Program-made: the position numbers and the translations under genes | Notes under the pieces: model-generated | The model's input: the letters and a program-made list of their open reading frames with translations, nothing else | Told to the model about the DNA's origin: nothing | Database searches by the model: none | Shown: piece after piece, positions 38,027-49,184 of the stretch | Layout: every line of letters starts with the position of its first letter | Position numbering within the stretch: position 1 is the stretch's first letter | Assembly (NCBI GenBank): GCA_007123065.1 | Contig: SKSI01000090.1 | Span: 1-55,899 of the forward strand | Direction of reading: 5' to 3' | Length of the DNA: 55,899 nt | DNA from: Bacteroidales bacterium | GTDB lineage: Bacteria; Bacteroidota; Bacteroidia; Bacteroidales; UBA7960

Positions 38027-38740
38027 TTATTTCGTTTCTCCTGCCTCCTTGAGAAGTTGCCTGATTTTTTCTTCTACGATCACAGCGTGTGTGTGCATAT
38101 AAGTATAAAAGGTTATGTGCAATACGTGGCTGCCATCTCCTGTATTCCTGATTCGGACAGAAGGGGTCGGACTGATCACCCACGGCAATGCCATCAGGTG
38201 TTTAAAGACCTTTTCCCTGATCTGTTCTGATGTGTGCGCAGACAAAAGGGGAATCTCTGCCTGATGCGGGAGGCTGTCTTCATTATCAGGTGGAATGACA
38301 AACAGCTGGTTGCTAAGACGTGAATAGGGAACATTAACAGTTTCGCCGGCATCATTAATCAGCTCCAGACACCGGAAACCTATCCTGCAAATTTTTCCTT
38401 CAACGATAGGTGTTTTAATGATTTGTCCCGGCTGCAGGGCTTTTTCAGTCTTTAACAGGACACCGGCAAAAAAGTCACGAAACACGAACCAGGCAAGTCC
38501 GAAGATCACCAATATAGCCATCAGGACCACGATCAGATCGTAATACAAATATTGTCCGAAAACAATCAACACACCCCAGAAAGAGAAAGCAATCCAGGCG
38601 AAAAGCTCAAGAACAGGCAACGTCCGGAGGATTCCTGTGCGCAAAGGCTTTTTTCTTATAATTGCTTTGGTGAATCGGTTTAACAAACGAAAAAGCAGCA
38701 AAAGCAAAAGGCCTGTTATGGTAAAAATCAGCAGATTCAT
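38027..38740 (-). CDS. Small MscS-like (mechanosensitive channel domain) membrane protein
   Basis: Three TM helices followed by an MscS beta-domain-like stretch PGQIIKTPIVEGKICRIGFRCLELINDAGETVNVPYSRL. The ATG overlaps the TGA of the upstream giant ORF (ATGA). Confidence 0.6.
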   Translation of the reverse strand: MNLLIFTITGLLLLLLFRLLNRFTKAIIRKKPLRTGILRTLPVLELFAWIAFSFWGVLIVFGQYLYYDLIVVLMAILVIFGLAWFVFRDFFAGVLLKTEKALQPGQIIKTPIVEGKICRIGFRCLELINDAGETVNVPYSRLSNQLFVIPPDNEDSLPHQAEIPLLSAHTSEQIREKVFKHLMALPWVISPTPSVRIRNTGDGSHVLHITFYTYMHTHAVIVEEKIRQLLKEAGETK

Positions 38741-41700
38741 AATCGTTTCTTCTTTTTTAATAATCCGGTAAGATACAGATCTAGTCCGGGCCGGATAGCA
38801 AAAACATCTTTAAACCTTTCAACGAGTATACCGGCGCGCATCAGCTCGCGAATATCGGCAGTCACTTCACTCTCTTCTTTTTCAAGGTTTTTCGCCAGCT
38901 TTTCAACGGTAAATCTCCGGTTGTACAAAAACTGCTGGATATAAAACCACTGACTGGCAGAAAGCAGATCAAACACCTTTTTGTCGGGCAACTTAACCGG
39001 CTCCATTACAATCGTTTTTCCTGAGACTTTTTTGATTGAAGAAAGCCAAAGCCTTGTTGTTAATCCCGGGTTTCCGTTTGATTGATCAAAAAGCAGGTTA
39101 AAGAGACTTGCAAAGTCCCAGGCAGTCATGCGACTCTCTTCTTTTTTGTGAATCTGAAACTTCATCCCACCGGCCTGATGCCTCAGCATGATCATCTCTT
39201 TAAGTTCTCTCGCATCAAAGGCTTGACATTGAACAGTAGCAAGAGCATAACTACTCAACCTCGTTTGTTTATCAATCAGTTTGAAAACGTTATTATTCAC
39301 ATTAATTACAAACAGGCACTTGTGGCCATACCGGTCAATCAGGTTGAGGATGGTTTCCACCACCACATTGCCACCCGGGCGCCGCTCCCACCAAAGTCCG
39401 AGGTCGTGAATAATGATCAACTTGCCGGCAGGCATTGCTCTGAACACATCTTCCAGGCGCTTGTTCTTTGCGTTCAAAGCATCAAGTAATTTACGCGTAA
39501 ACAGGCCTGCATCAGCAGAACAATCCTGAGGAGCTTGTACCGAATGGATATGCTCCATGGCAAAAAAGCGTTCTGCTACTTTTTTAGAAAGACTTGATTT
39601 CCCTGAGGTACGTGGCCCGGTGATAAGCAATGCCCCGGGGAAACCGGCTTTAAACCGTTGCATAGCCTGCACGCAAACCTTAATTTCGGAATCCATCCCA
39701 ACCCAGAAGTCATCACCTGTACCAGACTGACCGGAGAACAACGAAGTATAGTAGAACGGCAACTCTTTAATTATCGACTGATCAGGGGTGATAGCTTCAG
39801 CAAAAGCCAGCATATCCCTGTTTGATTTCTCAAACGACACTTCCGGTTGTTCGAAATGGCTGATCCACAATTGCCCCTCGCTTTTGCTGTAAAGCAGGTC
39901 CACAAAACGATCACGGGTAAGCTCCTTAAAATGCTGCCACTGACGTTGTATGCTCCCGGAAAACTCTGCTTGCTCACTGTCTCTTGGTCTCTTCCTTACA
40001 ACCATGCTTGTTTTGTTGATGGTAGCAGAAGAAAGAGGATCGAAGCCGCGTTTTAGACCGGATAAAAATACTTTTTCAATGTTGTCAGCAAATTGCAGGA
40101 TGTGTTGCTTAATAACAATAAGCTTGTCCAGAAACGACTGAATTAAAACCAGGGCCTGTTGATCGCGACCTGCCTGTTCGGCGGCTGCATCATCCTTGCC
40201 CTGGTTGTCCAGACTAAAGTTCAGCAACCTGACCATATCTTTGACAGATGCAAGATGCTGTTTTAATTCCTGTTCCGCATCCATGCACTTTTTATTGCTG
40301 TAGTCAATCAGTTCGGTGCTGACATAATACTCAACTGTCTTTCTTAAACTGACCATCAGCCGGTCTGCCTTGGCAAAAGCCGTTTCCTTGAACTTTTCCC
40401 CCAGCTGTTCCGCTGTTACTTCCATTTTATCGGGAATGTCATTCAGCAACTCCCCTATCTCAGCGTAAAGGCCGCTGTATATGCCAGCGACAGGTATCGG
40501 TTTCAGATGTTCATGCTCCAGACGCGGCGTTTTTTTGAGTCCGGTTTTCTTTTCTGCCAGCAACTGTTGCGCAAAGAGTTCATACTCGTCAAGATGCCTG
40601 ATCAGTTCGTTGGTGAGGGCGAGTTGAAAATCGTAATGGTATTTTTTTATCTTTGACTGTATGCGGCTTTTTACTGAAAGGATATAATAGTCAATGATGG
40701 TTTTATTGATGAACAGGGACAGATTGCCTGACCATACCGACGCAAAGCTTTCAATATCAGAAACAATACCCGGATCTTTTTTGAAGTATGGATAAAAGTT
40801 GCTGCTTAGAATATTGGCTCCCGTGCTTTCCAGATTATGGCTAAACTCCTGAAGGTCGCCAGCAAGCGCTTCGTGCATTTTTTGCCCTGCCTGCAAGTAA
40901 AAGTTTCTGCTTTCATGTTCCATCACTTCAACTTTTGCAGCAAGACGGCCTCTTTCAAGCTTTATTATTTCCAGGCTTTTTGATTTGTTGTCTTCTTCAA
41001 GCCTTACTTTTTCAATGAGCTCATGAATTGCATTGAACAACTTGCCCACTTCAACCACCTCCATAAATGAATGAAGTGCAAAATCGACCATCAGCTCACG
41101 AACCAACGCAATTCTCTTATGATACAAAAAGTAACGGGCAGAAGGGACCACACGGATTTTATGTGTAACCGGTTTTCGAAGAATAGCGGAAAGCAGTCGT
41201 TTTCTTGTTTTATAAAAGCGGGTTTTGAAACGGTCGTGTTCTTTTATGGCAAACTCTTTACCCGAAAGTTTGATCCGGATAAACTCCGGCATCACATTCA
41301 TCATTGCGCGCAGCTCATCAAGATAAGTTTTGTTTGCTTCTTCCAGGTGGTTTTGAATAGCCTGCACGCGCTGTTCTCGCAACAAATGGATATGTCGTTG
41401 CGAGTGAAAAGAAAAATCATTCAGGATGATCAAAAAGCTTTTATCGCTGTCGGCACCCTGTAAGTTATTCACCGCACGTTGCAATGTGTCAAGTGTTCGC
41501 AGAGAAAAATTCAGCAGCTCGGGGAAAAAACGCAAATCAAGTTTGTGAATCTTTTCATGGCCATTTTCATAATACTTCAATGCAAACTTGCCTGCGGTTT
41601 GGGCAATATTGATCACCTCATTTGTGATAATTTCTCTGGAAGACGGCTTAAGGTGTCTGACAACATCAAAGCTGGCGCGCTCAGGTGTAACAGATGGTTC

Positions 41701-43908
41701 CGAAGCCTTTGCTTCATCAATAACATTGATTGCGTCAAAGAATGATGATGCAGAAACAAGGAGCGTAGTCGGCACACTGTCGATTAACAGGTTCGCCTTA
41801 TTAAGCACCTCCTGTGGTTCTTTTGTGTTAAACTCAGGAAGTTCAATAATACACAAATCTGCCTCACGCGATTCTGCACTGATGATCTTTTCGACAGGAA
41901 GCTGTTCCACGGCATTGTTGATGACTTTTACATCGGCCTTTAGCCTGTGGTTATCAAGCAGTTGATTGATCAGGCTATAAAGAGAGTCCGTTTTCGAGCT
42001 GTCTGAGTGAACGACAAGTATCCTGAAGCTTGCTGTCCTCCAGGCATTGCTTGAGGTCAGGAATTTCATCAGTGACAGCACGAGCGACAGGGCGCGTCCT
42101 TTGCCGTTCCACCAGAAATCTATGTGTTGTTTTTTTCCAAAGCCCTTGTCTTTATCATAGCTTAAGAACAAATTATTATAATCCTGGCGCTTGAGGTTAT
42201 TCAGCAGCCTGGCAAATTTTTCGGGATTTCTCGTGTTCCTGCCCCATCCCATCAGAATGGTATTGGGTTCAAAGCCCGTAAAACCGTAAACTCTTGAAAT
42301 AACATCAATGCCTTCATAAACATCACGACAGGTATGTTTTCTGGTAAACACACCCCTGTCTGTTTGTTTGTCTGCAACCATCGGGCCATCTTTCAAGCCA
42401 AACAAAATCTCTCCTGACGGTTGTTCGGTGAGCTCAAAGTTTGTAAACACACCCATTTTCCCAACAAGGGATTTCCCCATATCTATCAGATGCGGTCTAT
42501 GTTTCTCTCCTCCACTGAACAACATCACATTAGGCCGCCAGTTATTTGGCATTTTACTGCTTGTGCTAAGCTTTCCCAGTCCGGTTTTCACCAGTGATGA
42601 CCAAACGCCTGTCCAGGTATCGCCACTTTGTAACGAGAGCTCTTTTCTCTTTAAAAACAAAAACAAAGCAATAAGCAAAACAGAGGCGACAATCAGTGCC
42701 ACAACATCCAGTTGTATCATCACAACGATGCTTGCCAGCGCCCCTATGATACCAACAATGCGGGGGATTCGGAAGGAAGGACGAAAATCGCTTCCTGCCC
42801 AGCTTTCAATTACATAAGTTATATTTAGAAAACCGTATGTGATGATGAAGAATATGGTAACGATGCGGGCAATTACATTCAGCTCCCCGATAAGAATTCC
42901 TGTTTGGGCGATCAGGTAAGTAACAATCAGTGCGTTTCTCGGTTCGCTGCCGGCGCCGTATCCCCTGGAAAAAAAACCAGGAAGGATCCGGTCGATTGAA
43001 ACTGCTTTTAGTATTCGCGGAGCACCCATTATACTCCCCAATGCTGATGATAAAGTAGCTGCAAAAACACCTGCAACTACAAGTTGCGGCACCCATGAAA
43101 TATCAAACAACACGTTGGGATCATAGGCCAGAAGGTTTCTGTCTACAGTATAAGAAAGAAACACAGTTAAACCTGTATATATTACCAATCCTGATAAAAT
43201 TGCCATAATGGTACCGACAGGAATAGCCTTCTGCGGGTTTCTTAGGTCACCGGACATAGAGACACCAGTGTTGAACCCGGTGACTGCCGGAAAGAATATG
43301 GCAAACAAGACAATCCAGGGTGTCGTCCCGTCGAATGAACGTGTAACAGGATCAACCATTGACAAGTCGTGACTGCCGGCAAATACAGACACCAACGACA
43401 GGGCCAGAACAGCAAGAATCAGATATTGTATCCTGATCGCCAAAGATGTGCTAATAAAAGTGACAATGGTGACCAAAAGCAGCATGATTGAACCGGTAAT
43501 CCTGATCGTATACAGACTCAACTCAAAACCAAAGTACGACAGAAAGGTCTCGGCAAAACCGATCAGGTAAAGGCTGATGCTGAAGGAAAACCCAACAAAC
43601 AGTGCCAGTCCGAGTGTGCCGCCAATCGGGAGACCGAGGCTGCGCGATATGATATAATACGCCCCACCCGTCTCAACCCGCTTGTCTGTAGCAAGCGAAG
43701 AAATGCTCAATCCTGTTGTAATAGAAATGACATGAGCAACCATTATAATCCCAAGGGTTGACCACAAGCCTGCCATACCTATAATCCACGGCAGACGCAG
43801 AAACAAGATCACACCCAGAATAGATAACAACGACGGAACATAAACACCGCCAAAGGCACCAAATTTCTTTGCTTTTCCCACGCTTTTTAGATTTTGTAAC
43901 TCATCCAA
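38737..43908 (-). CDS. Giant fusion protein: SLC12/cation-chloride-cotransporter-like permease, its cytoplasmic domain, a roughly 700-aa helical region, a P-loop NTPase, and a winged-helix-like tail
   Basis: 1723 codons with no in-frame stop. N-terminal KFGAFGGVYVPSLLSILGVILFLRLPWIIGMAG plus 11-12 hydrophobic segments (nt ~43866-42649). CCC C-domain-like region (nt ~42546-41734). Walker A LITGPRTSGKS read at nt 39601-39630. Walker B-like KLIIIHD. The track start is a TTG, and an in-frame GTG at 43881 is an alternative start. Confidence 0.8.
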   Translation of the reverse strand: MDELQNLKSVGKAKKFGAFGGVYVPSLLSILGVILFLRLPWIIGMAGLWSTLGIIMVAHVISITTGLSISSLATDKRVETGGAYYIISRSLGLPIGGTLGLALFVGFSFSISLYLIGFAETFLSYFGFELSLYTIRITGSIMLLLVTIVTFISTSLAIRIQYLILAVLALSLVSVFAGSHDLSMVDPVTRSFDGTTPWIVLFAIFFPAVTGFNTGVSMSGDLRNPQKAIPVGTIMAILSGLVIYTGLTVFLSYTVDRNLLAYDPNVLFDISWVPQLVVAGVFAATLSSALGSIMGAPRILKAVSIDRILPGFFSRGYGAGSEPRNALIVTYLIAQTGILIGELNVIARIVTIFFIITYGFLNITYVIESWAGSDFRPSFRIPRIVGIIGALASIVVMIQLDVVALIVASVLLIALFLFLKRKELSLQSGDTWTGVWSSLVKTGLGKLSTSSKMPNNWRPNVMLFSGGEKHRPHLIDMGKSLVGKMGVFTNFELTEQPSGEILFGLKDGPMVADKQTDRGVFTRKHTCRDVYEGIDVISRVYGFTGFEPNTILMGWGRNTRNPEKFARLLNNLKRQDYNNLFLSYDKDKGFGKKQHIDFWWNGKGRALSLVLSLMKFLTSSNAWRTASFRILVVHSDSSKTDSLYSLINQLLDNHRLKADVKVINNAVEQLPVEKIISAESREADLCIIELPEFNTKEPQEVLNKANLLIDSVPTTLLVSASSFFDAINVIDEAKASEPSVTPERASFDVVRHLKPSSREIITNEVINIAQTAGKFALKYYENGHEKIHKLDLRFFPELLNFSLRTLDTLQRAVNNLQGADSDKSFLIILNDFSFHSQRHIHLLREQRVQAIQNHLEEANKTYLDELRAMMNVMPEFIRIKLSGKEFAIKEHDRFKTRFYKTRKRLLSAILRKPVTHKIRVVPSARYFLYHKRIALVRELMVDFALHSFMEVVEVGKLFNAIHELIEKVRLEEDNKSKSLEIIKLERGRLAAKVEVMEHESRNFYLQAGQKMHEALAGDLQEFSHNLESTGANILSSNFYPYFKKDPGIVSDIESFASVWSGNLSLFINKTIIDYYILSVKSRIQSKIKKYHYDFQLALTNELIRHLDEYELFAQQLLAEKKTGLKKTPRLEHEHLKPIPVAGIYSGLYAEIGELLNDIPDKMEVTAEQLGEKFKETAFAKADRLMVSLRKTVEYYVSTELIDYSNKKCMDAEQELKQHLASVKDMVRLLNFSLDNQGKDDAAAEQAGRDQQALVLIQSFLDKLIVIKQHILQFADNIEKVFLSGLKRGFDPLSSATINKTSMVVRKRPRDSEQAEFSGSIQRQWQHFKELTRDRFVDLLYSKSEGQLWISHFEQPEVSFEKSNRDMLAFAEAITPDQSIIKELPFYYTSLFSGQSGTGDDFWVGMDSEIKVCVQAMQRFKAGFPGALLITGPRTSGKSSLSKKVAERFFAMEHIHSVQAPQDCSADAGLFTRKLLDALNAKNKRLEDVFRAMPAGKLIIIHDLGLWWERRPGGNVVVETILNLIDRYGHKCLFVINVNNNVFKLIDKQTRLSSYALATVQCQAFDARELKEMIMLRHQAGGMKFQIHKKEESRMTAWDFASLFNLLFDQSNGNPGLTTRLWLSSIKKVSGKTIVMEPVKLPDKKVFDLLSASQWFYIQQFLYNRRFTVEKLAKNLEKEESEVTADIRELMRAGILVERFKDVFAIRPGLDLYLTGLLKKKKRL

Positions 43909-45660: not shown

Positions 45661-45672
45661 AGATCCTCCTTT
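45645..45672. terminator. Hairpin between convergent mscS and the encapsulin operon
   Basis: 8-bp stem AAGGAGGA (45646-53) / TCCTCCTT (45664-71) with a 10-nt loop. Flanking U-tracts are weak on both strands. Confidence 0.4.
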
Positions 45673-45699
45673 ATAACCAAAACCTATTGATATAAACTG

Positions 45700-46491
45700 C
45701 TATTTCAATACAAGAACTGCTGCCGGATCAATTACCTGGAAAGTAAAAGATTCAGTAAAGTAGAGTTGTACTGATTTGTTATTGTGTGATTCATAACCAA
45801 TTGAAAGGTCTTGTCCGAGCACCAGGCGAAAGTCACCTCCCCGCTCCGATACCAGGTAAGAATCCTTCACATAAGGTGCCATGATGATACTGCCGCCAAG
45901 CAGGCTTTCCAGTTGTTTACGCAGCGGATAACCTTTCACGTAAGCATTTACCTGCTGCCACTTTTCAGTATTAAGCACCAGCGAGTATGGGCCTTCTATT
46001 GAGTTGGCCTTCAGTTTTGATACTGCTGTAGCGATTGCACCGGCGATCTCTTCGCCGGCCTGGGGAAAGGCCATCACATTGTAATCGGAACGTTGTTTCA
46101 ATCCGGCAATCTGACCGGCTTTAAAGCCTTCATAGATTGCTGTTTCTTCAAACCTGGCAATCTCCCTGGCAGCATCTTCCATTGCTTCAAGATCAATGTC
46201 TTCTGCGCCACGAGCTACGTTATCAAGCTCCCAGATATTCAGCTCGAATGGTATGCGGGCTTCTACCAAAGGCAGCACCTGATGTGTACCATATTTTACA
46301 GTACCTTTCTGGTTGGCAGGCACCTGAATGCGGCCTGTTGATAAAGCAGCATAGTCCCATCCTTTGGGGCCTTCCACATCCAAAAACTTACGGCCTGAAA
46401 GCACAGAGTTCAGCACTTCTTTGGCAGTTTCATTGATTTCCTCCCATGCGGCATCCGAAATCGGTGCCAATGTTTTTCTTAATATATCCAT
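45700..46491 (-). CDS. Family 1 encapsulin nanocompartment shell protein (linocin M18-like, HK97 fold)
   Basis: 263 aa. N-terminus MDILRKTLAPISDAAWEEINETAKEVL and overall similarity to T. maritima-type T=1 encapsulins. Immediately downstream of a cargo gene that carries a targeting peptide. Confidence 0.85.
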   Translation of the reverse strand: MDILRKTLAPISDAAWEEINETAKEVLNSVLSGRKFLDVEGPKGWDYAALSTGRIQVPANQKGTVKYGTHQVLPLVEARIPFELNIWELDNVARGAEDIDLEAMEDAAREIARFEETAIYEGFKAGQIAGLKQRSDYNVMAFPQAGEEIAGAIATAVSKLKANSIEGPYSLVLNTEKWQQVNAYVKGYPLRKQLESLLGGSIIMAPYVKDSYLVSERGGDFRLVLGQDLSIGYESHNNKSVQLYFTESFTFQVIDPAAVLVLK

Positions 46492-46502
46492 TTTATCCTC
46501 CT

Positions 46503-46871
46503 TTATTTTTTAATTTTTCCAATTCCTAATGAGTCTGAATTGCCACCGTCATTTCCGCCATGATCATCATGATCATCATGATCATGTCCATGGCTACCCA
46601 TGATATCGCCTTCTTTAAACAACCAGTTGCGCAACTCTTCATCCCAACCGGGCATGTTGCGGCGCAACCACTCAAGGGCCATGCACGCATGCTCAATCTC
46701 TTCGTCGCGGTTATGTGCCATAATGGCTGCCAGATCAGGGTCGTTGCTGGTTACCACGCGCTGATGGTACCAGTCAACAGCCTCAATCTCTTCCTTTAAA
46801 CTGTTTAATGCACGCGAAAAATTACGCGCTTCCTGTGATAACTCTTCTGCTGGTTCGTGATATGCTGACAT
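46503..46871 (-). CDS. Encapsulated ferritin-like protein (EncFtn/Flp cargo)
   Basis: 122 aa. E28, Y35, E58 and H61 reproduce the E-x6-Y ... E-x2-H ferroxidase spacing of EncFtn. C-terminal SLGIGKIKK resembles the encapsulin targeting-peptide consensus. Confidence 0.8.
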   Translation of the reverse strand: MSAYHEPAEELSQEARNFSRALNSLKEEIEAVDWYHQRVVTSNDPDLAAIMAHNRDEEIEHACMALEWLRRNMPGWDEELRNWLFKEGDIMGSHGHDHDDHDDHGGNDGGNSDSLGIGKIKK

Positions 46872-47120
46872 AATAATTCAGTTTAGTTTGTTTTTTTAAT
46901 AATTATGATTTGTCATTTATGACTTTTTTTTCAGGTCAGGTATTGGTTTGCCACCCAAAACAGTCATTTCACTGCTTAATGCAAATATAATCTATTTGTT
47001 GCTACTATACAAACAATTGCTTTTGTTGTTTTGTTTGCTCTTTGTCTTTTGTTTATTTTTGTCGTTTCTTGATTTTGGATTTTTTCAGAGTCTTAATATC
47101 ACAAATTAAACAAAACAACC

Positions 47121-49184
47121 ATGAAAAAACACATCAAATTATTTACAATTGCAACCATGATGTTTGTCATAGGATGTACAAACAGTGGCAGCAAAAAAAA
47201 ACAAACAGAAATGAATGTTATACCGGATAAGACTATAGAACAAGTGATCAGTCAATTGACAGACAAACACGGCAATGAGCATCTGTCATTGATAGACCGT
47301 GGAACCAGACAGGCAGCTGCCCTGTGGACAAAAGAAGACGGAAGTGAAGAAACGTTTGTCAGTTTTTGCCTGGACAGTTACGTCGCTGACCCGGCAGAGC
47401 GTGAGGACTTATTCAATAGCCTGTCACGAAACTATGAATTCATCTGGGGACATTTCAACCAGATGATGCTTGAACTTAACAAACCGCTTCACCTTGATTG
47501 GGGTCCGATCAAGCCTGTCGATATTTTGTTCGGCAGCTATGCACCGGCTGCACATCTTACAGAAGATTTCTACAAAAACAAAGTTGCATTTCTGACCATT
47601 TTGAATTTCCCGTTTTATTCTTTGGACGAAAAAAACGAACATGGGCAAAAATGGACCCGCGAAGAGTGGGCATATGCCCGTATGGGTGATGTGTTTACTT
47701 CCAGGATACCCGCAGATATCATTCAGAACATGTCGCGCGTAGGAACCATTTCCGACAATTATATATCGGAATATAACATTGTAATGGGTCAGCTGGTGAA
47801 TGATGAGGGAGAAAAGCTTTTCCCCGACAATCTTCGTCTGATCACACACTGGGGTCTGCGCGACGAACTGAAGGCACATTACGATGGCACACCGGAAGGA
47901 CTTAAAAAACAGCGAATGATCTACCAGGTGATGCAGCGCATCATCGACCAGAGCATCCCGGAAAAGGTGATCAACAACCAGGAGGTGGAATGGAATCCAT
48001 TCTCCAATGATGTCAAAAAAGATGGTAAATCAATAATGGTTGAACCGGAACCGAATACCAGGTACCGGCATCTGCTTGATAATTTCCTGGCGCGCGAAAA
48101 AGCCGACCCTTATGCACCAAGTTATCCGACGGCAATCGAGCGGGCATTCGAGCAAGGGCTGGAACTCAGCATGGATGAAGTGGAATCTGTTTTCATAGAA
48201 CTGGTTGGCGACCCGATGATGCAAGAAGTGGGTGCGCTGATATCTCAACGCCTGGGCAGAGACCTGGAGCCTTTTGATATCTGGTATGATGGATTTAAAG
48301 CACGTAGCGGAATACCGGAAACGGAACTGGACAAACTGGTAACAGGAAAATATCCAGATGCAGAAGCCCTTGAACAGGGCATGCCTGACTTGTTGGTAAA
48401 GCTGGGATACAGCAGGTCACGAGCTGAAGAGATTTCAAGTAAAATCGTTGTTGAAGGAGCCCGGGGTGCCGGACATGCATGGGGTGCACAAATGCGTTCC
48501 CAGTATTCGCACCTGCGTACACGTATTGCTGAAGGAGGAATGACATACAATGGATTCAATATTGCAGCCCACGAACTTGGACATAACGTGGAACAAACGG
48601 TCAGTCTGCATGATGTGGATTACTACCTGATGAACGGCGTTCCGAATACGGCCTTCACTGAAGCGCTCGCGTTCATTTTTCAGACACGAGATCTTGAACT
48701 CCTTGGTATAAGCAGTGACGACCCAATGCTGGAACACCTCAAAACCCTCGATATCTTATGGGGAACTTATGAGATCATGGGCGTATCACTGGTTGACATG
48801 CAAGTCTGGCGATGGATGTACGAAAACCCAAAGGCTTCACCCCGGCAGCTTAAGGAACAAACCATGAAAATCGCCATAGACGTGTGGAATAATTACTACG
48901 CACCGGTTTTTGGCATCAAAGACACCCCAATTCTGGCAGTTTATTCTCACATGATCAGCTATCCGCTATACCTCAGCGCTTATCCGCTGGGACACCTCAT
49001 TGAATTCCAGATCGAAGAGCATGTTCGTGGCAAAGTGCTGGCAAATGAAATAGACCGTATTTTTTCCCTTGGCCGATTAACGCCCGTACATTGGATGCAG
49101 GAAGCTGTTGGAACACCCCTGTCAGCCAGACCTTTGCTGGATGCAGGAAAGAAAAGTGCAGCGGCCCTCAACGGAACGAAATAG
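47121..49184 (+). CDS. Putative zinc metallopeptidase lipoprotein (gluzincin-type HExxH)
   Basis: Lipobox FVIGCTN. HELGHNVE followed about 25 aa later by FTEALAF, an HExxH...E arrangement as in M2/M3-like peptidases. Family not resolved. Confidence 0.55.
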   Translation: MKKHIKLFTIATMMFVIGCTNSGSKKKQTEMNVIPDKTIEQVISQLTDKHGNEHLSLIDRGTRQAAALWTKEDGSEETFVSFCLDSYVADPAEREDLFNSLSRNYEFIWGHFNQMMLELNKPLHLDWGPIKPVDILFGSYAPAAHLTEDFYKNKVAFLTILNFPFYSLDEKNEHGQKWTREEWAYARMGDVFTSRIPADIIQNMSRVGTISDNYISEYNIVMGQLVNDEGEKLFPDNLRLITHWGLRDELKAHYDGTPEGLKKQRMIYQVMQRIIDQSIPEKVINNQEVEWNPFSNDVKKDGKSIMVEPEPNTRYRHLLDNFLAREKADPYAPSYPTAIERAFEQGLELSMDEVESVFIELVGDPMMQEVGALISQRLGRDLEPFDIWYDGFKARSGIPETELDKLVTGKYPDAEALEQGMPDLLVKLGYSRSRAEEISSKIVVEGARGAGHAWGAQMRSQYSHLRTRIAEGGMTYNGFNIAAHELGHNVEQTVSLHDVDYYLMNGVPNTAFTEALAFIFQTRDLELLGISSDDPMLEHLKTLDILWGTYEIMGVSLVDMQVWRWMYENPKASPRQLKEQTMKIAIDVWNNYYAPVFGIKDTPILAVYSHMISYPLYLSAYPLGHLIEFQIEEHVRGKVLANEIDRIFSLGRLTPVHWMQEAVGTPLSARPLLDAGKKSAAALNGTK

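What the first reader, a model, noticed from the sequence alone, without database searches (positions are those of the whole stretch)
45700..46871. Encapsulin nanocompartment operon with encapsulated-ferritin cargo
Seen in sequence: the 263-aa ORF has the length and the N-terminal pattern (MDILRKTLAPISDAAWEEINETAKEV...) of family-1 encapsulin shell proteins. The 122-aa ORF 11 nt upstream has E28/Y35/E58/H61, which match the E-x6-Y and E-x2-H spacing of the EncFtn ferroxidase site (E32/Y39/E62/H65 in the Rhodospirillum rubrum protein). It ends in SLGIGKIKK (nt 46532-46506), which closely matches the SLGIGSLK-type cargo-loading peptide. Established knowledge: the cargo-then-shell gene order and the C-terminal targeting peptide define family-1 systems, which mineralise iron inside a T=1 shell. 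This two-gene iron-storage/oxidative-stress organelle is the clearest accessory system in the window. I believe such systems are less commonly reported in Bacteroidota.
Basis: partly seen in the sequence, partly recalled or inferred. Interest (0 to 1): 0.6.

Follow-up and report, generated by a model that had tools for sequence, protein, structure and literature searches.

The report
Iron-storing encapsulin nanocompartment operon
This is a genuine but ordinary two-gene operon for a virus-like protein shell that locks an iron-oxidising enzyme inside it, found in an uncultured soda-lake Bacteroidales bacterium. Systems of this kind have already been catalogued in that bacterial group.

Summary
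The observation and the interpretation both hold. The 122-aa ORF (46871-46503, minus strand) is an encapsulated ferritin (PF22277 138 bits; TIGR04535 147 bits against a cut-off of 125; R. rubrum EncFtn 8e-32). It has all four ferroxidase residues, the entry-site residues and a C-terminal DSLGIGKIKK loading peptide. Eleven nt downstream, the 263-aa ORF (46491-45700) is a family-1 shell (PF04454 294 bits; NF041155 286 bits; T. maritima encapsulin 2.6e-71 over the full length; AF2 model TM 0.86-0.91 to T=1 shells).

The cargo-then-shell pair recurs in every one of 37 related Bacteroidales loci, with its own promoter box and terminator. It is common in the genus (20/24), occasional in the order (33/401) and was not found in a 400-genome phylum draw. 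It is not new. Andreas & Giessen (2021) already list Bacteroidetes FLP systems, including Thermophagus xiamenensis, and NCBI already names orthologues.

Three lineage-specific details are mildly interesting:
- a His/Asp-rich cargo linker;
- a conserved GGAGG before the shell gene in an SD-poor genome;
- the invariant flavin-stacking Trp87.

I file this as a new member of a known kind, of low interest.

The parts
46982..47013 (-). Putative Bacteroidota-type promoter. The -33 element TTTG lies at 47013-47010 and the -7 box TATATTTG at 46989-46982, with a 20-nt spacer. It sits about 110 nt upstream of the EncFtn ATG.
   Evidence: Sequence read. TATATTTG is the only strongly enriched word upstream of the orthologous cargo genes: 23 of 36 loci against about 1 expected in shuffles. 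The consensus TTTG/TAnnTTTG is from my own knowledge of Bacteroides promoters. No transcription start site was mapped.
46503..46871 (-). EncFtn cargo gene (122 aa plus stop). The EncFtn domain is aa 4-87 (46611-46862). The ferroxidase residues are E28, Y35, E58 and H61; the entry-site residues are E27, E30 and W34.
   Evidence: PF22277 138.2 bits (cut-off 27) and TIGR04535 147 bits (cut-off 125). R. rubrum EncFtn matches at 8.1e-32 and 1.9e-30. All listed residues are invariant in 37/37 orthologues. The entry-site definition comes from bioRxiv 10.1101/785121.
46560..46592 (-). His/Asp-rich linker HGHDHDDHDDH (aa 94-104) between the ferritin core and the loading peptide. Part of it is encoded by a perfect 9-nt x 3 tandem repeat (46559-46585).
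   Evidence: Translation and tandem repeat. In the 26 aa before the loading peptide, 43 of 119 close Bacteroidales relatives have at least 3 His, whereas 33 of 33 diverse EncFtn representatives have 0 or 1. Among the related loci, 26 of 37 linkers have at least 3 His.
46506..46535 (-). C-terminal cargo-loading peptide DSLGIGKIKK (aa 113-122)
   Evidence: It aligns with SLGIGSLK of R. rubrum EncFtn. It fits the LGIxxL core of the GxLGIxxL motif seen bound to the H. ochraceum shell. DSLGIGKIKK or a near variant ends all 37 orthologues. It is the only ORF in the assembly with such a tail.
46497..46503 (-). Shine-Dalgarno-like AAGGAGG. Its first base is the last base of the cargo stop codon, and it ends 5 nt before the shell ATG.
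   Evidence: Sequence. GGAGG occurs within 20 nt upstream of the shell ATG in 29/37 loci (GGAG in 33/37), against 0/37 (2/37) upstream of the cargo gene. Only 14 of 1167 crude gene calls in this genome have GGAGG at -20..-4.
45700..46491 (-). Family-1 encapsulin shell gene (263 aa plus stop). The flavin-stacking Trp87 is encoded at 46231-46233.
   Evidence: PF04454 294.1 bits and NF041155 286.3 bits. T. maritima encapsulin matches at 2.6e-71 over residues 1-263. The AF2 model has pLDDT 82 and pTM 0.79. The top 27 Foldseek hits are T=1 family-1 shells with TM 0.79-0.91. W87 and R79 are invariant in 34/34 orthologues. The role of Trp87 in T. maritima is from PMC8086157.
45642..45672 (-). Intrinsic-terminator-like hairpin: an 11-bp stem at 45672-45645 followed by a U-run. 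It overlaps the 3' end of the convergent MscS gene.
   Evidence: The RNA fold gives -19.9 kcal/mol with z = -4.0, and 0 of 200 shuffles fold as well. Most orthologous loci also have a stem plus T-run downstream of the shell gene.

Best explanation
This is a self-contained two-gene family-1 ('classical') encapsulin operon.

Inferred expression. The operon is transcribed from its own Bacteroidota-type promoter and ends at a hairpin terminator.

Shown by sequence and structure comparison. The first product is an encapsulated ferritin (EncFtn) with a complete di-iron ferroxidase centre (E28/Y35/E58/H61), the EncFtn-specific entry site (E27/E30/W34) and a C-terminal loading peptide DSLGIGKIKK. The second product is an HK97-fold shell protein closest to the T=1 shell of Thermotoga maritima.

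Inferred from the characterised homologues (R. rubrum, H. ochraceum, T. maritima).
- EncFtn forms annular decamers.
- Its C-terminal peptide docks in the hydrophobic pocket on the luminal face of shell protomers.
- Sixty protomers close into a shell of about 24 nm around a few decamers.
- Fe(II) enters through the shell pores, is oxidised by EncFtn, and the ferric mineral is held inside the shell.
- This gives high-capacity iron storage and protects against Fenton chemistry.

Because the shell keeps the flavin-stacking Trp87, it probably binds FMN or riboflavin on its outside as the T. maritima shell does.

The system supplements ordinary iron storage rather than replacing it, because most genomes of the genus also encode a classical ferritin.
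For: - Family membership: both proteins score above the curated cut-offs.
- Solved homologues: both match over their full length.
- Shell structure: the AF2 model matches T=1 shells best (TM 0.86-0.91, 36-42% identity). T=3 and T=4 shells match clearly less well (TM about 0.7-0.79, 18-21% identity).
- Catalytic and entry-site residues: invariant in 37/37 orthologues.
- Cargo-then-shell order: kept in 37/37 loci, mostly with an 8-17 nt spacer.
- Copy number: one shell gene, one EncFtn gene and one loading-peptide-bearing ORF in the assembly.
- Transcription signals: a promoter box is enriched upstream in 23/36 loci, and terminators follow the shell gene.
- Neighbours: they are unrelated housekeeping and transport genes with no phage genes.
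- Retention: the system is kept in 20/24 genomes of the genus.
- Flavin site: W87 is invariant, and its flavin role in T. maritima is documented.
- Classical ferritin: present in 21/24 genus genomes.
Against: - Nothing in the sequence argues against the assignment.
- Assembly, T number, encapsulation, ferroxidase activity, flavin binding and expression were not observed; all rest on homology.
- The loading peptide differs slightly from the published GxLGIxxL core (D for the first G, I for the last L).
- In T. maritima itself, no functional effect of the flavin on iron loading or release was found.
Confidence: 0.93

Rival explanations
1. The compartment works as described, but its physiological job in this sediment anaerobe is mainly defence against transient O2/H2O2 plus Fe(II), or flavin-linked redox handling of iron. 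Bulk iron storage would then be done by the classical ferritin.
For: - 21/24 genomes of the genus carry a classical ferritin (about 150 bits to PF00210) beside the encapsulin.
- A rubrerythrin is present in the window's own genome.
- The shell keeps Trp87, which the T. maritima literature says is found almost only in encapsulins of anaerobes.
Against: - EncFtn encapsulins characterised so far store much more iron than ferritin (abstract of 10.1101/785121).
- No classical ferritin was found in the window's own assembly or in its closest relative G001, although both are incomplete at 81% and 66%.
- Storage and detoxification are not mutually exclusive.
Confidence: 0.3
2. The shell mainly packages another cargo encoded elsewhere (a DyP peroxidase, hemerythrin or the like), and EncFtn is a minor or secondary cargo.
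For: The assembly is only 81% complete, so a distal cargo gene could be missing. Secondary cargos encoded outside the operon are known in other family-1 systems (PMC8346489).
Against: A loose search of every ORF tail in the assembly found no other loading-peptide-like C-terminus. EncFtn is the adjacent gene in 37/37 loci. The shell is closest to the Flp-loaded T. maritima shell.
Confidence: 0.04
3. The shell gene is a prophage HK97 major capsid protein remnant, and the pairing with a ferritin-like gene is fortuitous.
For: There is a weak secondary match to PF05065 Phage_capsid (24.5 bits, E 2.1e-5), as expected from shared ancestry.
Against: - The Linocin_M18 match is 294 bits against 24.5 for Phage_capsid.
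- The NCBIfam equivalog for family-1 shells is met.
- No terminase, portal or protease gene is nearby; the neighbours are an MscS channel, an HExxH lipoprotein and PurN.
- The pair is conserved at this chromosomal site across the genus.
Confidence: 0.01

Closest known systems
Thermotoga maritima encapsulin (TM_0785; PDB 3DKT, 7K5W, 7MU1) with its Flp/EncFtn cargo
   Same: It is the best solved-structure match (2.6e-71, residues 1-263 to 1-264, about 43% identity). Both have a shell of about 264 aa, a ferritin-like cargo with a C-terminal loading peptide encoded just upstream, the flavin-stacking Trp87 and R79, and an anaerobic host.
   Different: The host here is a mesophilic or haloalkaline-sediment Bacteroidales rather than a hyperthermophile. 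There is a one-residue deletion in the loop region aligned to T. maritima residues 176-200. The cargo linker is His/Asp-rich. The loading peptide ends in GKIKK.
Rhodospirillum rubrum EncFtn (Rru_A0973; PDB 5DA5) and its encapsulin
   Same: It is the best cargo match (8.1e-32). The identical ferroxidase residues are E32/Y39/E62/H65 in R. rubrum and E28/Y35/E58/H61 here. The identical entry-site residues are E31/E34/W38 in R. rubrum and E27/E30/W34 here. Both have an SLGIG loading peptide.
   Different: The R. rubrum linker is Ala/Gly/Glu-rich with no His (alignment). Its shell matches the window's shell less well than the T. maritima shell does (185 against 243 bits).
Family-1 FLP encapsulin systems already catalogued in Bacteroidetes (Thermophagus xiamenensis, Geofilum rubicundum, Sunxiuqinia dokdonensis; Andreas & Giessen 2021, Supplementary Data)
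   Same: They share the two-gene architecture. The Thermophagus locus (L042) has a shell 64% identical to the window's and a cargo core 86% identical. NCBI names the Anaerophaga and Marinilabilia orthologues 'encapsulin-associated ferritin-like protein'.
   Different: The Thermophagus linker is acidic with a single His (…EGENNSTDSSAHSLGIGKIKK). Its pre-shell motif is the weaker GGAGA. The flanking genes differ.

Membership tests
Family-1 (classical) encapsulin shell | The shell protein matches the Linocin_M18 / family-1 shell profiles above curated cut-offs | tested here: met
   PF04454 294.1 bits (cut-off 24.3); NF041155 equivalog 286.3 bits (cut-off 100).
Family-1 (classical) encapsulin shell | HK97 fold | tested here: met
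   There is a full-length match to solved encapsulins. The AF2 model (pLDDT 82, pTM 0.79) superposes on 27 T=1 encapsulin chains with TM 0.79-0.91.
Family-1 (classical) encapsulin shell | Cargo gene with a C-terminal targeting peptide encoded next to the shell gene, and no phage morphogenesis genes | tested here: met
   EncFtn ending in DSLGIGKIKK lies 11 nt upstream. The neighbours are an MscS channel, an HExxH lipoprotein and PurN. The arrangement is kept in 37/37 loci.
Family-1 (classical) encapsulin shell | Self-assembly into a closed icosahedral shell (T=1, about 24 nm) that encapsulates the cargo | not testable with these tools
   This is inferred only from closer similarity to T=1 shells than to T=3 or T=4 shells.
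Encapsulated ferritin (EncFtn / Flp cargo) | Match to EncFtn profiles above curated cut-offs | tested here: met
   PF22277 138.2 bits (cut-off 27); TIGR04535 147 bits (cut-off 125).
Encapsulated ferritin (EncFtn / Flp cargo) | Ferroxidase-centre residues (Glu, Tyr, Glu-x-x-His) and the EncFtn-specific entry site (Glu, Glu, Trp) | tested here: met
   E28/Y35/E58/H61 and E27/E30/W34 align with the R. rubrum residues. All are invariant in 37/37 orthologues.
Encapsulated ferritin (EncFtn / Flp cargo) | Annular D5 decamer and ferroxidase activity that needs the shell for mineral storage | not testable with these tools
   No multimer modelling or assay was available. This is inferred from 53-60% identity of the core to solved decameric EncFtns.
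Flavin-binding (T. maritima-type) encapsulin subgroup | Aromatic Trp at the position of T. maritima Trp87 that stacks on FMN | tested here: met
   W87 is present here and in 34/34 orthologues. Trp occupies this position in only about 10% of PF04454 members according to PMC8086157.
Flavin-binding (T. maritima-type) encapsulin subgroup | Bound flavin | not testable with these tools
   This needs a purified shell, UV-vis or mass spectrometry.

The most novel reading that the evidence does not exclude
This soda-lake Bacteroidales clade may have modified the classical system in two ways.

1. The cargo tether became a His/Asp-rich metal-binding tract. With some forty tethers per shell, this would line the lumen with several hundred imidazole and carboxylate ligands. 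Such a lining could capture or funnel Fe(II) or another metal, or nucleate mineral.

2. The shell gene kept a strong Shine-Dalgarno sequence in a lineage whose ribosomes normally ignore such sequences. Shell synthesis, and so the shell-to-cargo ratio, would then be tied to the pool of bS21-free ribosomes, as described for rpsU in Flavobacterium johnsoniae.
Probability: 0.2. Interest if true: 0.55.

Novelty: new member of a known kind. Interest (0 to 1): 0.2.

Why it matters
This matters mainly as a correct annotation. It identifies a high-capacity iron-sequestering organelle in an abundant, uncultured group of soda-lake sediment Bacteroidales. It also shows that the system is a stable trait of that genus while being rare across the phylum.

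The lineage-specific details give cheap, testable handles on three open questions in the encapsulin field:
- whether cargo linkers do more than tether;
- what the shell-bound flavin is for in anaerobes;
- how shell and cargo stoichiometry is set.

In Bacteroidia translation, they also bear on which genes other than rpsU and prfB keep functional SD elements.

Tried and rejected
1. Encapsulin as the sole ferritin-type iron store. Rejected at genus level. The window's own assembly has only a rubrerythrin under PF00210, but 21/24 genus genomes have a classical ferritin. The four genomes without one, including this one, are 64-81% complete.

2. A Fur/PerR-like operator in the 249-bp upstream region. 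Word enrichment over 36 orthologous upstream regions recovered only the promoter box TATATTTG(C). No palindromic or Fur-like word stood out. The inverted repeat near 46905-46922 is therefore not supported by conservation.

3. Long-range pairing between the shell's SD (AAAGGAGGAT) and the CCUCC arm of the terminator, which repeats the same 10-mer. CCTCC occurs downstream of the shell gene in only 3/35 loci, so I treat it as coincidence.

4. Secondary cargo elsewhere in the genome. None was found with a loose C-terminal motif scan.

5. Conserved accessory genes. The MscS and HExxH neighbours are syntenic only among close relatives and are absent from the more distant loci. The conserved unit is therefore the two genes.

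6. Expression evidence from public runs.

7. The sigma-70 and terminator scanner found nothing meaningful. Its promoter model does not cover Bacteroidota promoters, and the terminator loop exceeds its limit.

Full report
**Observation.**
The 122-aa ORF lies at 46503-46871 and the 263-aa ORF at 45700-46491, both on the minus strand. An 11-nt spacer separates them. The quoted N-terminus, the E28/Y35/E58/H61 positions and the SLGIGKIKK tail (46532-46506) are all present.

**Identity of the shell.**
- The 263-aa protein matches Pfam Linocin_M18 (PF04454) end to end at 294 bits. It matches the NCBIfam equivalog 'family 1 encapsulin nanocompartment shell protein' at 286 bits against a cut-off of 100.
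- Against solved structures, the best match is the Thermotoga maritima encapsulin (2.6e-71, residues 1-263 to 1-264). The T=1 shells of Haliangium, Klebsiella, Rhodospirillum and mycobacteria follow. T=3 and T=4 shells (Myxococcus, Quasibacillus) score only 25-35 bits.
- An AlphaFold2 model built on 26 orthologues (pLDDT 82, pTM 0.79) superposes on T=1 family-1 shells with TM 0.79-0.91. It fits T=3 and T=4 shells less well.
- A weak Phage_capsid match (24.5 bits) reflects only the shared HK97 ancestry.

**Identity of the cargo.**
- The 122-aa protein matches EncFtn-like PF22277 (138 bits) and TIGR04535 'encapsulin-associated ferritin-like protein' (147 bits against a cut-off of 125).
- It aligns with R. 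rubrum EncFtn (8e-32) at a constant offset of four. E28/Y35/E58/H61 therefore correspond to the ferroxidase residues E32/Y39/E62/H65. E27/E30/W34 correspond to the entry site E31/E34/W38 described by Piergentili et al..
- All these residues are invariant in 37 orthologues.
- The C-terminal DSLGIGKIKK aligns with the R. rubrum SLGIGSLK. It keeps the LGIxxL core of the motif that was seen bound to the luminal P-domain pocket of the H. ochraceum shell.

**Operon anatomy.**
- Upstream of the cargo gene lies TTTG, then 20 nt, then TATATTTG (47013-46982). This fits the Bacteroidota promoter consensus, which I know from memory rather than from a tool.
- TATATTTG is the only word strongly enriched upstream of the orthologous cargo genes (23/36 loci against about 1 expected).
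- Downstream of the shell gene, an 11-bp hairpin with a U-run (45672-45642; -19.9 kcal/mol, z -4.0) serves as a terminator. Most orthologous loci have an equivalent hairpin.
- The flanking genes are a convergent MscS channel, a divergent HExxH lipoprotein with no family match, and PurN. There are no phage genes.
- The neighbours are syntenic only among close relatives, so the conserved unit is the two genes.

**Distribution and origin of the window.**
- The window comes from a 1.77-Mb assembly in 207 contigs that is 81% complete. It has one shell gene and one EncFtn gene and no other ORF with a loading-peptide-like tail.
- The nearest relatives are Bacteroidales MAGs labelled CSSed, B1Sed and T3Sed. 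These labels denote Kulunda Steppe hypersaline soda-lake sediment datasets.
- More distant relatives include Thermophagus xiamenensis, with a shell 64% identical.
- The shell is present in 20/24 other genomes of the genus and in 33/401 genomes (23/236 genera) drawn from the order. It was found in none of 400 genomes drawn across the phylum.
- It is not a novelty, however. The supplementary data of Andreas & Giessen (2021) already list family-1 FLP systems in Bacteroidetes (Geofilum, Sunxiuqinia, Thermophagus). The paper reports Flp cargos in 23 bacterial phyla. NCBI already names the Anaerophaga and Marinilabilia orthologues.

**Mechanism.**
The family assignments, catalytic residues, loading peptide and gene order are shown. 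The following steps are inferred from the characterised R. rubrum, H. ochraceum and T. maritima systems:
- EncFtn forms decamers.
- The C-terminal peptides tether the decamers to the inside of a 60-mer T=1 shell.
- Fe(II) enters through the pores and is oxidised.
- The ferric mineral is retained in the lumen.

The idea that this is the organism's only ferritin-type store did not hold. Only a rubrerythrin was found in the window's own assembly, but 21/24 genomes of the genus carry a classical ferritin. The compartment is therefore an addition to ordinary iron storage. A role weighted towards oxidative-stress protection in these sediment anaerobes is a reasonable alternative.

**Lineage-specific details.**

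*(a) His/Asp-rich linker.* The tether between the ferritin core and the loading peptide reads HGHDHDDHDDH (46560-46592).
- It is partly encoded by a perfect 9-nt x 3 tandem repeat.
- In the 26 aa before the loading peptide, 43 of 119 close Bacteroidales relatives have at least 3 His. Among diverse EncFtn representatives with a recognisable tail, 33 of 33 have none or one.
- The composition persists while the exact sequence and length vary. This fits either selection for a metal-binding tether or a slippage-prone GAT/CAT microsatellite.
- I found no paper describing such linkers.

*(b) Conserved Shine-Dalgarno motif.* AAGGAGG lies in the non-coding spacer 5 nt before the shell ATG.
- GGAGG is present before the shell gene in 29/37 loci and before the cargo gene in 0/37.
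- Only 14 of 1167 crude gene calls in this genome have GGAGG upstream.
- Bacteroidia ribosomes are reported to be blind to SD sequences unless they lack bS21 (abstracts of PMC7797042, PMC9976891 and PMC13000453).
- The genus does encode bS21, and its gene carries a conserved AAAGAGG.
- Whether the shell's motif is functional or a retained relic is open.

*(c) Flavin-stacking tryptophan.* Trp87 of the T. maritima shell occupies a position that is Trp in only about 10% of family members. It is said to be typical of anaerobes. It is invariant in all 34 orthologues compared, so a flavin-binding shell is likely.

My data agree with the first two. They give no conservation support for the inverted repeat as an operator.

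**Verdict.**
This is a textbook family-1 EncFtn encapsulin and a new member of a known and already catalogued kind. Interest is low (0.2). A modest upside exists if the His/Asp tether or the SD motif proves functional.

**Limits.**
All statements about assembly and activity are homology-based.

Noticed in passing
window 47121-49184 (+): A 687-aa HExxH (HELGHNVE) putative lipoprotein is transcribed divergently from the encapsulin operon. It has no Pfam or NCBIfam match at E<=0.01. It is conserved next to the operon in many genus-level loci (58-76% identity) but not in the distant loci.
   Followed up: partly
window 46559-46585: A perfect 9-nt x 3 tandem repeat (CATGATCAT on the plus strand) encodes the DHDDHDDH part of the cargo linker. 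It is a slippage-prone tract, which may explain the length variation of the linker among orthologues.
   Followed up: partly
L058-L065 (rpsU loci of genus relatives): The bS21 gene (rpsU) of the genus carries a conserved AAAGAGG 5-6 nt before its ATG in all 8 loci read. This is reminiscent of the autoregulatory SD of rpsU in Flavobacteriales. rpsU itself was not found in the window's own 81%-complete assembly.
   Followed up: partly
window 46494-46505 and 45662-45673 (-): The 12-mer ATAAAGGAGGAT occurs twice: once as the shell gene's ribosome-binding region and once as the 5' arm of the operon's terminator hairpin. The CCTCC arm is shared only with the closest relative (3/35 loci overall), so this is probably coincidence.
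   Followed up: yes
G000 whole assembly; G001, G013, G022: No classical ferritin (PF00210 at about 150 bits) was found in the window's genome or in three other low-completeness genus members, including its closest relative G001. It is present in the other 21. I cannot tell loss from missing contigs.
   Followed up: partly
window 38737-43908 (-) and 38027-38740 (-): A 1723-aa ORF combines an AA_permease-type transporter with weak AAA/P-loop matches near the C-terminus. A small MscS-like gene follows it. This was already followed up by another agent of this scan.
   Followed up: no
G000: C80 5923-6816(-), C86 2086-3027(-), C87 2235-2657(-), C104 20130-20645(+), C159 14887-15360(-), C195 3252-3905(+), C197 34966-36564(-): Besides the shell gene, only seven crude gene calls of 120 aa or more in the assembly have a full AGGAGG at -20..-4. 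I did not identify these genes. They would be the natural comparison set for SD-dependent translation in this lineage.
   Followed up: no
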